From IMG/VR virus record IMGVR_UViG_2740892231_000009: 17,503 nt of DNA; one strand, 5' to 3'. The DNA is from a virus. Its lineage: Duplodnaviria > Heunggongvirae > Uroviricota > Caudoviricetes. Position 1 is the stretch's first letter, and the number at the start of each line of letters is the position of its first letter. A program made the position numbers. Positions 9,001-17,503 of this stretch are shown here, in pieces.

Positions 9001-12000
9001 ATGCCTCGCGTTCTTCAATTGCGTTTTGTAGGCTGTCAGGGATACTGTCCCACGAATGGCCACTGTAAGCTCCAGATGACCATTTTTGTTATTCTCCACA
9101 ACGAGTTAGTTCTTCTTTTCGGATCCGGCACTTCTGGGGGGGAAATCCAGCGATGGCTGGATTATGTCGTCAATTAAAAATGCGGCGAGTAGATTAGCAA
9201 ATATCCACGCTTTCGCGAGTTCAGGTTCCTTTGCACGCAAAGCATCCAGGTGCAGCAAACTTTTGAGCCGCTTAAAAGCCAGTTCAATTTGCCATCGCAG
9301 ACGGTAACAATCAGCCACTTGCTCTGCTGAATATTCATCTTCCGGTAATGATGTTAGCAATAGCACATGGCCCGCTGCTTCCAGCGTTTCCGCCTGAACT
9401 ACTCGTCCTTTTCGACGATTCTCGCTGAGCAGTCGGGTTTTACTGATTAATGCTTTTTCGGGAGGAAGTGATACGGCAATGAGACGTGCCGGAAAGGGAG
9501 CTCCGGCTTTTTTATTACCTGAATTGCCTATCATTACAGTGGTTTCACCGTTCTTACCGCAATCCAGCCCGCGCAGAAAACCCATCATGTCAAAGCGCAT
9601 TCCTTCTGCAGTTAACCAGCGCAATCCTCGCCAGTGAACCCGGACGATATAATCAGCTTCTCCAAAAGCAAGTGAGCGGATACATTCGGGACGCGAACCG
9701 AATCCCCGGTCAGCAATGCGTATCTCGTCTGCCGTTTGCGCAAATCGGTCCAGCCGTTCAGCGTCTCTGCTGTCGGTTAGCTCAAAATCAGTGAACTGAC
9801 AGGTATGAGGATCATATCCCATATGTAGTCGCCATTCAGCGCTGCCGCCCCCGGGCGCACTGATTGCTGTTCCATCGACAAGACGCAATCTCTTTCCGCT
9901 TGTACAACCCGTAACTGCGGCGCGTACAGCAAGTGTTTGTGCGGCAAGTATGCCAAACCAGTCGGCGGCATTCCGCAGCCGCTTCAGGAGAGCCACGTCA
10001 GATAATGTTGCAACGTCATGGAGCTGAGCCCATGCAGTGACTTCACGTAATGACATCCCCCCGGGGCCGTAAGCCAGCCCCAGACGTAGCAGAGTTGCAG
10101 CATCACGAATTTCGCGGCGGCGGGTTAGAGCCCCGGCATTACGTGCCGAAGTATCCAGTTCTTCGGGCTTACCAATATGGGCCAGAATTGCTGACCAGTT
10201 ATCGTGAGAGTAATTCATCGGCACGTTAAATCATATCAGGCGTAATACCACAACCCTTAAGTTAGCGCTTATGGGGAGAATCCCTCGCCACCTCTGATGT
10301 GTCAGGCATCCTCAACGCACCCGCACTTAACCCGCTTCGGCGGGTTTTGTTTTTTCCTAGCATTCTGGTTTACAATTCGCACACCAGCCTGAACAACTGG
10401 CACCTGCTGCGCCAGCAGAGACAACCGATGGCGCACGATACCAAATTACACAATTCTGATAATTCAGCCGTCTTTGCCAGCAGGCGCGGACGGTGTTTTC
10501 ACGCATTCAAATCTGACTGGTACCAGCATCCCCCATGCACTGAAGAACAGGCCGAATGGCTCATTCAGTGTTACCGCAGGCGCGGATACGAGGTTAAAAA
10601 AGCCCTTAGCCTCGACTACCGTCACTGGATAATCTCCGTCAGGCTTCCTTACTCTGAACGCCCACCGCGTCCGTCCCGCACATTCCAGCAACGCATCTGG
10701 AGGTAACGTGCGGGTATTACTTCGACCTGTTCTGGTACCGGAACTCGGGCTGGTGATCGTTAAGCCGGGCCGTGAATCCATGCCGGTATTCCACAATACC
10801 CGGGTACTGGTGGAGCCGGAACCGAAAAGCATGCGTAATCTGCCGTCCGGGGTCGTTCCTGCCGTTCGCCAGCCGCTGGCGGAGGATAAATCATTACTGC
10901 CATTTTTCAGCGACGAACGAGTGATTCGTGCTGCTGGTGGCGCTGGCGCATTGTCTGACTGGTTACTGCGCCATGTTAAATCCTGCCAGTGGCCACACGG
11001 CGATTATCACCACAGTGAAACCGTCATTCACCGTTATGGTACCGGCGCAATGGTGTTGTGCTGGCACTGCGACAACCAGTTGCGTGACCAGACCTCCGAA
11101 TCACTTGAGCAACTTGCTCACCAAAACCTGTCAGCATGGATGATTGACGTCATTCGTCACGCAATGAATGGCACACAGGAGCGTGAATTATCGCTGGCCG
11201 AATTATCCTGGTGGGCGGCCTGCAATCAGGTGGTGGATGCATTACCTGAGGCAGTAGCGCGTCGTTCGCTGGGATTACCAGCGGAAAAAATCCGCTCCGT
11301 ATACCGTGAGAGTGACATCGTACCGGGAGAACAGACAGCCATCAGCATACNNNNNNNNNNCAGTCTGGATGATTGATGTTATACGTCACGCAATAAACGG
11401 TACGCAGGAGAGGGAGTTATCGCTGGCCGAATTATCCTGGTGGGCGGCCTGCAATCAGGTGGTGGATGCACTACCTGAGGCAGTAGCGCGTCGTTCGCTG
11501 GGATTACCGGTGGAAAAAATCCGCTCCGTATACCGTGAGAGTGACATCGTACCGGGAGAACAGACAGCCATCAGCATACTGAAGCAGCGCACAAAAAATA
11601 TTGCGCTGCCACTTCACGTCCACCAGCAACAAAATCCACCACAGAAAAAAACGGTTGTCAGTATCGCTGTTGATCCGGAGTCTCCTGAATCGTTCATGAA
11701 GCGGCCTAAACGTCGCCGTTGGGTTAATGAGAAATACACGCGCTGGGTAAAGACACAGCCGTGTGCGTGTTGTGGTAAGCCTGCTGACGATCCGCATCAC
11801 CTGATTGGTCATGGTCAGGGGGGAATGGGGACAAAGGCCCACGATATTTTCACGCTACCGTTGTGCCGGGAACATCACAACGAACTTCATGCAGACCCGC
11901 TGGAGTTTGAGAAAAAGTACGGCTCTCAGGTTGAGTTAATTTTTCGTTTTCTTGATCACGCCTTTGCAACCGGCGTGCTTGGGTAAAAGAGGTTACTGAT

Positions 12001-15000: not shown

Positions 15001-17503
15001 ATTTGCCCTAACTATGGGCGTTTTATGCCTGACGTTAGAAGATTTTTACACCCGTCGCCAGGCGGGTTTTTTTATGACTGAAATCACGCCAGTACATAAA
15101 ATGTGCAGGTGGTTATTAATACCGGTCTTTCAGCTTGCTGGCTTTTTTGACAAGAGTTATTGGTGTGTCACGTTAACCGGAAAAGGGAAAAAGACATGCT
15201 GAAACAGCAGGATATGACCGAAACCGCCAGAGTGGTGTTTAATGAATTAAGCGTCACCGAACCGGCGACAGTCGGGGAGATTGCGCAGAATACGTACCTT
15301 TCACGCGAACGCTGTCAGTTAATACTGACCCAGCTTGTTATGGCGGGTCTGGCAGACTATCAGTTCGGTTGTTACAGACGCCTTCAGTCCTGAAGGCTTT
15401 TTTATTTGTGGTAAATGGGCGGCTGGTGGGTGTTAGGGGCACTCACCAGCCATCTGCTCATGCGTCTGGATCACAAGCAAACCTCAGGCCCACTGCTTTG
15501 CGCAAAAGCAGAATGAGCCTATCAGAGACAGGCTTAATGATCCATGTTTAATACTGTAAAAATATCCAGTTGTGAGTTGATCAACGCTGACTGCCTGGAA
15601 TTTATCCGGTCGTTACCCGAAAATTCTGTTGACCTGATAGTCACGGACCCGCCGTACTTTAAAGTGAAGCCTGAGGGCTGGGATAACCAGTGGAAGGGCG
15701 ACGATGATTACCTGAAATGGCTGGACCAGTGTCTGGCGCAGTTCTGGCGGGTGCTGAAACCTGCCGGAAGTCTTTACCTGTTCTGTGGCCATCGCCTGGC
15801 ATCTGACATTGAAATCATGATGCGAGAACGCTTCAGTGTGCTGAACCATATTATCTGGGCGAAGCCGTCCGGACGCTGGAACGGGTGCAACAAGGAAAGC
15901 CTGAGGGCGTATTTCCCCGCCACAGAGCGCATTCTGTTCGCGGAACATTATCAGGGGCCGTATCGTCCGAAANNNNNNNNNNCGGATCACAAGCAAACCT
16001 CAGGCCCACTGCTTTGCGCAAAAGCAGAATGAGCCTATCAGAGAAGTGCTTATTGATCTATGGCTAATACTGTAAAAATATCCAGTTGTGAGCTAATCAA
16101 CGCTGATTGCCTGGAATTTATCCAGACCTTACCGGAAAACTCTGTCGATCTGATAGTCACAGACCCGCCATACTTTAAAGTGAAGCCCGAGGGCTGGGAT
16201 AACCAGTGGACGGGGGATGAGGATTACCTGAAATGGCTGGACCAGTGTCTTGCGCAGTTCTGGCGGGTGCTGAAACCTGCCGGAAGTCTTTACCTGTTCT
16301 GTGGTCATCGCCTGGCGTCTGACATTGAAATCATGATGCGTGAACGCTTCAGTGTGCTGAACCATATCATCTGGGCAAAGCCGTCCGGACGCTGGAACGG
16401 GTGCAACAAGGAAAGCCTGCGGGCGTATTTCCCCGCCACAGAGCGCATTCTGTTCGCGGAACATTATCAGGGGCCGTATCGTCCGAAAGATGCCGGGTAT
16501 GAGGCGAAGGGCAGGGCACTGAAACAGCATGTGATGGCTCCGCTGATTGCTTACTTTCGTGATGCGCGTGCTGCCCTGGGGATAACGGCAAAACAGATAG
16601 TGGATGCCACAGGAAAGAAAAACATGGTGTCGCACTGGTTCAGTGCCAGTCAGTGGCANNNNNNNNNNACCGCTGATTGCTTACTTTCGTGATGCGCGTG
16701 CTGCCCTGGGGATAACGGCAAAACAGATTGCTGATGCCACAGGAAAGAAAAACATGGTGTCGCACTGGTTCAGTGCCAGTCAGTGGCAGTTACCGAACGA
16801 AAGCGATTATCTGAAATTACAGGTGCTGTTTGCCCGGGTGGCAGAAGAGAAGCATCAGCGGGGTGAACTGGAAAAGCCCCACCACCAGCTGCTGGAGACG
16901 TATACTTCACTGAACCGGCAGTATGCGGAACTGCNNNNNNNNNNACTGCCGAACGAAAGTGATTATCTGAAATTACAGGCGCTGTTTGCCCGGGTGGCAG
17001 AAGAGAAGCATCAGCGGGGTGAACTGGAGAAGCCCCACCACCAGCTGCTGGAGACGTATACTTCACTGAACCGGCAGTATGCGGAACTGCAGAGTGAATA
17101 TAAGCATCAGCGGCGGTATTTTGGCGTGACGGCGCAGGTGCCGTACACCGATGTGTGGACGCATAAACCGGTGCAGTACTATCCCGGGAAACATCCGTGC
17201 GAAAAACCGGCAGAAATGCTGCAGCAGATAATCAGCGCGAGCAGTCGTCCGGGGGACCTGGTTGCAGATTTTTTCATGGGGTCGGGTTCGACAGTCAAAG
17301 CCGCGATGGCGCTGGGGCGTCGTGCAACTGGCGTTGAGCTGGAGACTGAACGTTTTGAGCAGACGGTCAGGGAAGTTCAGGATTTAGCCAGTCAGAACGG
17401 NNNNNNNNNNCCAAAGCCGCGATGGCACTGGGGCGTCGTGCAACTGGTGTTGAGCTGGAGACTGAACGTTTTGAGCAGACGGTCAGGGAAGTTCAGGATT
17501 TAG

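What the first reader, a model, noticed from the sequence alone, without database searches (positions are those of the whole stretch)
11139..17503. Five of six 10-N gaps are flanked by near-identical but diverged duplicates: likely scaffolding of paralogous prophage copies
Gaps at 11351, 16659, 16935 and 17401 are each flanked on both sides by 90-220 bp of the same sequence with a few substitutions. The gap at 15973 is followed by a repeat of the region upstream of it (15470-15543 recurs at 15983-16059). The gap at 14160 instead joins unrelated sequence. This pattern is what results when an assembler or scaffolder joins overlapping contig ends from multi-copy, slightly diverged repeats, such as the many lambdoid prophages of EHEC-type genomes. 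Gene order, copy number and reading frames from about 11.1 kb onward should not be trusted without independent evidence; the region upstream, including the cassette, is contiguous.
Basis: seen in the sequence. Interest (0 to 1): 0.45.

Follow-up and report, generated by a model that had tools for sequence, protein, structure and literature searches.

The report
False duplications at scaffold gaps
The repeated stretches on either side of the six N-gaps are an assembly artefact: overlapping contig ends from several similar prophage copies were laid end to end, so the duplicated and broken genes here are not real.

Summary
The window is the 3' end of a public draft E. coli scaffold (GCA_000752815.1, CCPU01000076.1). 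All six 10-N gaps separate "tiles" whose ends overlap as diverged copies: 92-505 bp in the window, 91-98% identical. At gap 14160 the repeat is offset by 1.2 kb. At gap 15973 it is 505 bp, not about 75 bp.

In every pair the left copy ends exactly at the gap. On a gap-free relative (E. coli 2013C-3181) the seven tiles map as overlapping pieces of one continuous prophage. Merging the overlaps in register gives 15,154 bp against 15,153 bp in that relative. It also restores a full-length DUF968 gene (349/349 aa identical) and a full-length DNA methyltransferase reading frame.

Tiles alternate between about 100% and 94-97% identity to that prophage, so some come from other prophage copies. One 886-bp piece carries a different Q antiterminator. 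Another starts 100% identical to the methylase upstream of stx2a in strain FORC_069.

Three left tiles stop exactly 68 nt after their last difference from the next tile. That points to de Bruijn contigs with k=69 joined by a scaffolder. What is really there is an ordinary lambdoid late-regulation module. Interest is low, apart from data hygiene.

The parts
1..11350 (.). Tile S1: contiguous Qin-like lambdoid prophage sequence ('copy A'). It ends inside the DUF968 gene.
   Evidence: Aligns over its full length to E. coli 2013C-3181 (L001 1502-12851) at 99.96%, with 5 differences.
10708..11350 (+). 5' part of the DUF968 gene (aa 1-214), cut by gap 1.
   Evidence: In the deposited sequence the best stop-free piece covers reference aa 1-214 only. 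After collapse it covers 349/349 aa, all identical. Pfam DUF968, 2.5e-77.
11132..11350 (.). Left copy of overlap pair 1 (copy A variant).
   Evidence: 219 nt, 93% identical to 11361-11579. Identical to the reference prophage. Ends 68 nt after the last difference.
11351..11360 (.). Gap 1 (10 N).
11361..11579 (.). Right copy of overlap pair 1. This head of tile S2 carries variants from another prophage copy.
   Evidence: 13 differences from the reference prophage fall at 11377-11511, followed by 2.4 kb with none. This head is closer to the DUF968 genes of L003 and L004 (5-6 differences).
11361..14159 (.). Tile S2: DUF968 3' part, RusA (11999-12361), Q antiterminator PF06323 (12348-13043), PemK-like toxin (13237-13638), and the 65-aa gene truncated 19 nt before its end (13981-14159).
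   Evidence: Maps to L001 12638-15430 at 99.1%. Positions 11512-13906 are 100% identical. Pfam hits.
13837..14159 (.). Left copy of overlap pair 2.
   Evidence: Recurs at 15056-15374 (91-93%). The tile ends 68 nt after its last difference from the L001 and L003 alleles, at 14091.
14160..14169 (.). Gap 2 (10 N): join to a contig from a different prophage.
14170..15055 (+). Foreign insert at the head of tile S3. It is a different Q antiterminator (PF03589) lacking its first 7 codons (14170-14970), plus its downstream spacer.
   Evidence: Absent from the reference prophage. Matches L003 from position 4001, 21 nt into the annotated antitermination gene at 3980-4801. Pfam Antiterm, 3.4e-51.
14170..15972 (.). 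Tile S3: Q', a complete 65-aa gene (15196-15393), and the first 429 nt of a methyltransferase gene (15544-15972).
   Evidence: 98.7% to CFIAFB20190157 (L003) over its whole length, but only 95.8% to the reference prophage.
15468..15972 (.). Left copy of overlap pair 3.
   Evidence: 505 nt, 93.9% identical to 15984-16488. Ends 68 nt after the last difference.
15973..15982 (.). Gap 3 (10 N).
15983..16658 (.). Tile S4: a third variant of the methyltransferase 5' region (gene start 16060).
   Evidence: 94.2% to the reference prophage. Positions 15983-16367 are 100% identical to the methylase upstream of tRNAs and stx2a in FORC_069 (L004).
16659..16668 (.). Gap 4 (10 N).
16669..16934 (.). Tile S5: 266-nt mid-methyltransferase variant. 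It overlaps S4 (16540-16658 = 16670-16788) and S6 (16793-16934 = 16949-17090).
16935..16944 (.). Gap 5 (10 N).
16945..17400 (.). Tile S6: methyltransferase 3' part, back on copy A.
   Evidence: 99.8% to the reference prophage, with 1 difference. Ends 68 nt after its last difference from S7.
17401..17410 (.). Gap 6 (10 N).
17411..17503 (.). Tile S7: another variant of the methyltransferase 3' end. In the source contig it runs 122 nt further, through the stop codon and into a tRNA-Ile gene, where the scaffold ends.
   Evidence: 100% identical to L003. Contig continuation read.

Best explanation
The duplications are not in the genome. They arose when a short-read assembly of an E. coli isolate was scaffolded.

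The isolate carries several lambdoid prophages that share the late-regulation module: DUF968, RusA, Q, a 65-aa gene, an N6/N4 DNA methyltransferase, then tRNA-Ile/Arg/Arg. Where the copies are 93-98% alike, a graph assembler produces separate short contigs for each variant arm. Each arm stops about one k-mer past its last distinguishing base.

A scaffolder then placed arms from different copies in series, because read pairs tie them all to the same shared neighbours. The estimated distances were about zero or negative and the ends were not identical. It therefore could not merge them and wrote the minimum placeholder of 10 N.

The outcome is a chain of seven overlapping tiles, about 1.3 kb of false tandem duplication, and an 886-bp piece of a different prophage (a second Q gene). 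The public record also carries six broken or fused gene models.

The true locus is most likely tile S1 running straight into tile S2 at 11580, then Q, the PemK-like toxin, the 65-aa gene, one 1,059-bp methyltransferase gene and the tRNAs.

Shown: the overlap geometry, the restoration on collapse, and the different origins of the tiles. Inferred: the assembler type, k=69, read-pair scaffolding, and that the variants are paralogues in one genome.
For: Source: a draft NCBI WGS scaffold. The window lies at its 3' end.

Geometry: all six left copies end exactly at the gap.

Tiling: the tiles map onto L001 at 1502-12851, 12638-15430, 15109-16028, 15524-16198, 16080-16344, 16199-16654 and 16550-16641. 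They overlap and are monotonic on one continuous prophage.

Collapse test: merging in register gives 15,154 bp against 15,153 bp. DUF968 is restored from 214 to 349 aa (349 identical). The methyltransferase is restored from 208 to 351 aa (347 identical). Keeping either the left or the right copies works.

Gap-free records:
- Phage Stx2_EH1910 holds 14170-17400 (3,231 nt) in 2,431 contiguous bp.
- The three loci fetched and read in full (L001, L003, L004) each have one 1,050-bp DUF968 gene and one 1,059-bp methylase gene.
- The best-matching complete genomes hold the 7,004-nt query in 4.1-4.65 kb. No record covers more than 87% of it.

Mixed origin: tile identities alternate. Tile S2 differs from the reference only in its first 150 and last 250 nt. 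The head of S4 is 100% identical to an Stx2a-phage methylase.

Copy number: the module is multi-copy in many E. coli genomes, with up to 6-13 places per genome.

k-mer signature: S1, S3 and S6 end exactly 68 nt after their last difference from the next tile. S2 ends 68 nt after its last difference from the L001/L003 allele. No pair shares an exact run longer than 68 nt.

Literature: gaps lying between duplicated pairs on one scaffold are a listed hallmark of false duplications (PMC9516828).
Against: - No reads, coverage or assembly graph could be examined, so the artefact is inferred from sequence geometry and comparison.
- None of 5,426 complete genomes matches tile S3 or S4 above 98.7% or 98.5%. 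The donor prophage copies are therefore not identified, and the tiles may themselves be chimeric.
- The other contigs of this assembly were not seen, so the number of prophage copies in this strain is unknown.
- Tiles S4 and S5 end 56 and 61 nt after their last difference, not 68. Tile S2 ends 59 nt after its last difference from S3. The heads of the right-hand tiles show no fixed offset.
- The meaning of 10 N as a minimum-gap placeholder (the Velvet convention; NCBI treats runs of 10 or more N as gaps) comes from my own knowledge. I did not find it in the papers searched.
Confidence: 0.88

Rival explanations
1. The artefact is the same, but it came from reference-guided ordering. Contigs were mapped to a reference genome, sorted by coordinate and concatenated with 10 N. 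It did not come from read-pair scaffolding.
For: Tiles are strictly ordered by both start and end coordinate on a single reference prophage. All six gaps have the same fixed length.
Against: The scaffold contains very short pieces, 266 nt and 215 nt. It also shows a 68-nt end signature typical of raw graph nodes carried inside de novo scaffolds. Tile S3 starts with 886 nt that would not map to the copy A reference. None of this is decisive.
Confidence: 0.12
2. The variant tiles come from a second E. coli strain in the sequenced culture (a mixed sample or contamination), not from paralogous prophages within one genome.
For: No complete genome was found that contains all the tile variants. Nothing in the window itself distinguishes alleles from paralogues.
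Against: The 11.35 kb upstream is clean and unbroken. Breaks begin only inside the DUF968 gene, the first gene of the module that other lambdoid prophages share. The fetched relatives L003 and L004 align with S1 only from about 10.3 kb, at 87-89%. At least three variants of the methylase 5' region are implied: S3, S4 and the copy A type. One tile also carries a different Q gene, as expected for different prophages. Multi-copy carriage within one genome is common.
Confidence: 0.07
3. The duplications are genuine short tandem duplications or mosaic arrays, created by recombination between co-resident lambdoid prophages. The gaps merely fall at their junctions.
For: A complete genome (FY26) carries two whole late-regulation modules in tandem within about 8 kb (L005). 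Tandem arrays of this module can therefore exist.
Against: - All six junctions are hidden by a gap, and every left copy ends exactly at the gap.
- The duplications would break DUF968 once and the methyltransferase four times, yet both are restored perfectly on collapse.
- No similar intragenic duplication appears in the best-matching gap-free records.
- FY26 repeats whole modules in the opposite order. It does not repeat partial genes.
Confidence: 0.02

Closest known systems
False ('heterotype') duplications in genome assemblies (Ko et al. 2022, Genome Biol 23:205, PMC9516828)
   Same: Two diverged versions of one locus are placed one after the other on the same scaffold with a gap between them. 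This inflates copy number and breaks gene models. Gaps between the duplicated pair are a listed diagnostic.
   Different: In that work the two versions are haplotypes of a diploid genome. Here they are most likely paralogous prophage modules of a haploid bacterium. Read depth and k-mer multiplicity, the other diagnostics, could not be checked.
Late-regulation module of lambdoid and Stx-converting prophages (DUF968, RusA, Q, DNA methylase, tRNA-Ile/Arg/Arg, then stx in Stx phages)
   Same: Gene content and order match complete genomes and Stx2 phages. Pfam families are confirmed. A tRNA-Ile gene follows the methylase in the source contig.
   Different: No stx gene can be seen, because the scaffold ends in the tRNA. 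In the nearest relative, 2013C-3181, this prophage carries hypothetical genes rather than stx after the tRNAs. Copy A also carries a PemK-like toxin gene between Q and the late region.
Qin/Kim-type cryptic prophage of E. coli K-12 (dicB, ydfABC, hokD, a DUF968 protein, RusA, Q)
   Same: The reference annotation of the matching locus lists dicB, ydfA, ydfB, ydfC, hokD, DUF968, RusA and Q in this order. The resemblance to Qin is from my own knowledge.
   Different: Not compared directly with K-12. This prophage also has lysis and terminase genes downstream in 2013C-3181, so it may be more complete.

Membership tests
False duplication created by assembly or scaffolding | A gap lies exactly between the two copies on the same scaffold. 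| tested here: met
   In all six pairs the left copy ends at the last base before the N-run. In five pairs the right copy starts within 0-5 nt after it.
False duplication created by assembly or scaffolding | Merging the copies in register restores the length and reading frames seen in gap-free assemblies. | tested here: met
   15,154 bp against 15,153 bp. DUF968 349/349 aa. Methyltransferase 351 aa with 347 identical.
False duplication created by assembly or scaffolding | The duplication is absent from independent gap-free assemblies of relatives. | tested here: met
   The fetched loci L001, L003 and L004 and phage Stx2_EH1910 are single-copy and contiguous. No complete genome covers more than 87% of the query. 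Only the best-ranked records were inspected.
False duplication created by assembly or scaffolding | Reduced read depth on each copy, and discordant or absent read pairs across the junction. | not testable with these tools
   No reads or assembly graph are available.
False duplication created by assembly or scaffolding | The copies carry variant-specific k-mers, meaning they come from different alleles or paralogues. | tested here: met
   2-31 substitutions per pair. Tile identities to one reference alternate between 94% and 99.96%. The variants match other prophages.
Genuine tandem duplication | A readable novel junction joins the end of copy 1 to the start of copy 2. | tested here: not met
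   Every junction is replaced by 10 N.
Genuine tandem duplication | The same arrangement is present in an independent assembly. | tested here: not met
   Not seen among the best matches in 5,426 complete E. coli genomes or 50,697 phage records. FY26 has whole-module tandem copies in a different arrangement.
Lambdoid / Stx-phage late-regulation module | Gene set and order: DUF968, RusA, Q antiterminator, small ORF, N6/N4 DNA methyltransferase. | tested here: met
   Pfam PF06147, PF05866, PF06323, PF03589 and PF01555. The order matches L001, L003 and L004.
Lambdoid / Stx-phage late-regulation module | A tRNA-Ile/Arg/Arg cluster lies downstream of the methylase. | tested here: inconclusive
   The source contig runs into the first 65 nt or so of a tRNA-Ile-like sequence and then ends. 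The full cluster is seen only in relatives.
Lambdoid / Stx-phage late-regulation module | Shiga toxin genes lie downstream (Stx-converting phage). | not testable with these tools
   The scaffold ends before that position. The head of tile S4 is identical to the methylase upstream of stx2a in FORC_069, which is only suggestive.

The most novel reading that the evidence does not exclude
At least one join reflects a real tandem or mosaic array of late-regulation modules in this strain, produced by recombination between co-resident lambdoid prophages. The most likely candidate is gap 2, where a second, different Q antiterminator follows the first module. The whole-module tandem in E. coli FY26 (L005) would be a precedent.
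Probability: 0.03. Interest if true: 0.25.

Novelty: not a real feature. Interest (0 to 1): 0.08.

Why it matters
This matters only as data hygiene. The public record carries six artefactual gene models here. DUF968 is split into products of 222 and 207 aa. A 329-aa product fuses the 65-aa gene to a foreign Q. The methyltransferase is split into fragments of 162, 210 and 249 aa.

At least one of these X-containing products is indexed in the large protein collection. Such entries can be mistaken for truncated or duplicated genes, extra Q antiterminators, or copy-number changes in a region next to where stx genes sit in Stx phages.

Anyone typing Q, methylase or stx context from this draft should use the collapsed sequence or re-sequence the strain. 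The 11.35 kb upstream, including the unannotated three-gene cassette, is reliable.

Tried and rejected
- I looked for a complete genome containing all tile variants, which would prove paralogy within one genome. Tiles S3 and S4 reach only 98.7% and 98.5% in 5,426 complete genomes, so the donor copies remain unidentified.
- I tried to identify the strain and its assembly method from the literature by accession. There was no relevant paper. The single hit looks unrelated to E. coli and was not opened.
- I looked for a citable statement of the 10-N minimum-gap convention. The searches gave nothing usable, so that point rests on my own knowledge.
- I considered whether FY26's tandem late modules make the gap 2 join genuine. 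I rejected this. FY26 repeats whole modules in the opposite order, whereas the window joins a truncated 65-aa gene to codon 8 of Q'.
- I tried to derive a single k from all tile ends. Only four of six left ends give 68 nt, one of them only against the L001/L003 allele rather than the next tile. The right-hand tile heads give no fixed value. k=69 is therefore an inference, not a demonstration.
- I did not fetch the rest of the scaffold or other contigs of the assembly. The look-up works by exact protein and could not be aimed at one assembly.
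Full report
**Observation**

The window contains six runs of exactly 10 N, at 11351, 14160, 15973, 16659, 16935 and 17401. They cut it into seven tiles:

| Tile | Coordinates |
|---|---|
| S1 | 1-11350 |
| S2 | 11361-14159 |
| S3 | 14170-15972 |
| S4 | 15983-16658 |
| S5 | 16669-16934 |
| S6 | 16945-17400 |
| S7 | 17411-17503 |

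Local alignment of each tile with the next gives these overlaps:

| Gap | Left copy | Right copy | Length | Identity |
|---|---|---|---|---|
| 1 | 11137-11350 | 11366-11579 | 214 nt | 93.9% |
| 2 | 13837-14159 | 15056-15374 | about 320 nt | 91-93% |
| 3 | 15468-15972 | 15984-16488 | 505 nt | 93.9% |
| 4 | 16540-16658 | 16670-16788 | 119 nt | 97.5% |
| 5 | 16793-16934 | 16949-17090 | 142 nt | 97.9% |
| 6 | 17296-17387 | 17412-17503 | 92 nt | 97.8% |

E values run from 1e-50 to 0, so chance is excluded. In all six cases the left copy ends at the last base before the gap.

Two details are understated:
- The repeat at gap 15973 is the full 505 nt, not about 75 nt.
- Gap 14160 is not an exception. 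Its left flank recurs 1.2 kb into the next tile, behind 886 nt of sequence that the left tile lacks.

**Source**

An exact look-up of the X-containing 210-aa product that spans gap 4 found one record: NCBI GCA_000752815.1, contig CCPU01000076.1, 65,582 bp. The window lies at the 3' end of that record.

The contig runs 122 nt beyond the window. There tile S7 repeats the last 13 nt of S6, passes the methyltransferase stop codon and ends inside a tRNA-Ile gene. This makes the gap 6 overlap a 105-nt dovetail that also ends exactly at the gap. The sequence is therefore a scaffold from a draft isolate genome, not a metagenome.

**Comparison with gap-free genomes**

The best match among 5,426 complete E. 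coli genomes is strain 2013C-3181. It holds the 7,004-nt query in 4,654 bp, and no genome covers more than 87% of the query.

On that locus (L001) the tiles map as follows:

| Tile | L001 coordinates | Identity |
|---|---|---|
| S1 | 1502-12851 | 99.96% |
| S2 | 12638-15430 | 99.1% |
| S3 (part) | 15109-16028 | 95.8% |
| S4 | 15524-16198 | 94.2% |
| S5 | 16080-16344 | 96.2% |
| S6 | 16199-16654 | 99.8% |
| S7 | 16550-16641 | 97.8% |

These are overlapping pieces in monotonic order on one continuous prophage. That prophage has a single 1,050-bp DUF968 gene, RusA, Q, a PemK/MazF-like toxin, a 65-aa gene and a single 1,059-bp DNA methyltransferase. Three tRNA genes follow: Ile, Arg and Arg.

Phage Stx2_EH1910 holds window 14170-17400 (3,231 nt) in 2,431 contiguous bp. 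That is the window length minus the overlaps and the Ns.

**Collapse test**

I merged every overlap in register, once keeping the left copies and once the right copies. Both versions are 15,154 bp, against 15,153 bp for the reference span.

| Gene | Longest stop-free piece as deposited | After collapse |
|---|---|---|
| DUF968 | reference aa 1-214 | 349 of 349 aa; all 349 identical with left copies kept, 346 with right copies |
| Methyltransferase | reference aa 1-208 | 351 aa, running to the end of S6; 347 or 343 identical |

A set of real tandem duplications would not be expected to vanish this cleanly while restoring two genes.

**Origin of the tiles**

Differences between S2 and the reference prophage are confined to its first 150 nt and last 250 nt. 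The 2.4 kb between them is identical. S1 and the core of S2 therefore belong to the same prophage. The head of S2 is a variant arm from another copy, closer to the DUF968 genes of L003 and L004.

S3 begins 21 nt into a different antiterminator gene. Pfam assigns it PF03589, whereas the Q gene in S2 is PF06323. S3 matches strain CFIAFB20190157 at 98.7% along its whole length.

The first 385 nt of S4 are 100% identical to the methylase that lies upstream of the tRNAs and stx2a in FORC_069. S7 is 100% identical to L003.

At least two, and probably three or more, copies of the module contributed to this scaffold. The module is multi-copy in many E. coli genomes, with up to 6-13 places per genome. 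In the phage collection it occurs mostly in Stx-converting phages.

**How the artefact probably arose (inference)**

S1, S3 and S6 each end exactly 68 nt after their last difference from the next tile. S2 ends 68 nt after its last difference from the L001/L003 allele. The longest exact run shared by any pair is also 68 nt.

This is what contigs from a de Bruijn graph with k=69 look like. A variant arm includes every k-mer that contains its last distinguishing base and stops k-1 bases later, where it merges into a shared node. The other ends (56, 59 and 61 nt) would be set by forks against copies not present in this scaffold.

A scaffolder then linked arms of different copies to the same neighbours. 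It found them non-identical and wrote the minimum gap. From my own knowledge, 10 N is the usual minimum placeholder: the Velvet convention, and NCBI treats runs of 10 or more N as gaps. I could not document this in the papers searched.

Ko et al. 2022 (PMC9516828) list gaps between duplicated pairs on one scaffold as a hallmark of false duplications. Here paralogues play the part that haplotypes play in diploid genomes.

**Rivals**

- Reference-guided ordering would give the same picture and cannot be excluded (about 0.12).
- A mixed culture is less likely. The 11.35 kb upstream is unbroken, and breaks start only inside DUF968, the first gene of the module shared among lambdoid prophages.
- Genuine duplication is very unlikely. 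Every junction is hidden by Ns, and none of the best-matching gap-free records shows it.
- E. coli FY26 does carry two whole late modules in tandem (L005). However, they are in the opposite order and are complete modules, unlike the join at gap 2.

**What is really there**

The region is an ordinary late-regulation segment of a Qin-like lambdoid prophage. From 10708 onward the likely true order is:
1. DUF968
2. RusA
3. Q (PF06323)
4. PemK-like toxin
5. the 65-aa gene
6. one N6/N4 DNA methyltransferase
7. tRNA-Ile/Arg/Arg

Positions 14170-15055 and the variant arms belong to other prophages of the same strain. Sequence upstream of 11.1 kb is contiguous and reliable.

**Verdict**

This is not a biological feature. 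Interest is low, apart from flagging six artefactual gene models in the public record.

Noticed in passing
window 6262-8417 (minus strand): Three overlapping minus-strand ORFs lie between a Q-family gene (5732-6265, PF06530) and hokD. As listed they are 234, 142 and 381 aa; the public record calls them as 213, 142 and 379 aa. None has a Pfam hit, and PADLOC gives only one marginal hit (PDC-S54, E 0.002). They are conserved in 2013C-3181, where all three are annotated 'hypothetical protein'.
   Followed up: partly
window 13237-13638 (+): A PemK/MazF-family toxin gene (Pfam 6e-14) sits alone between the Q gene and the late-gene leader. No antitoxin gene is annotated next to it in the reference genome.
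   Followed up: no
window 5732-6265, 12348-13043 and 14170-14970: Three different antiterminator Q families occur in one window: PF06530, PF06323 and PF03589. The first two are also together in the complete genome 2013C-3181, so that pairing is real. The third is the foreign tile.
   Followed up: partly
L005 (E. coli FY26, NZ_CP101741.1 1-9552): A complete genome carries two whole late-regulation modules in tandem. The first is hokD, DUF968, RusA, Q', a 65-aa gene, methylase and tRNAs. The second is hokD, DUF968, RusA, Q and tRNAs. They lie at the very start of the record. This could be a real tandem prophage remnant or an assembly problem of its own.
   Followed up: no
L002 11445-11566 (the 122 nt of the source contig beyond window position 17503): The scaffold continues past the window through the methyltransferase stop codon and ends inside a tRNA-Ile gene, which is another multi-copy element. 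So the scaffold terminates in a repeat as well.
   Followed up: yes
window 9106-10224 (minus strand): The IS4-like (IS421 family) transposase is an intact 372-aa ORF here (Pfam DDE_Tnp_1). The corresponding gene in 2013C-3181 is annotated as frameshifted.
   Followed up: no
window 10708-11376, 13945-14970, 15544-16032 and 16060-16692: Gene models that run across the N-gaps give products containing XXXX. At least the 210-aa one is indexed as a protein in the large public protein collection, so scaffold artefacts are leaking into protein databases.
   Followed up: partly
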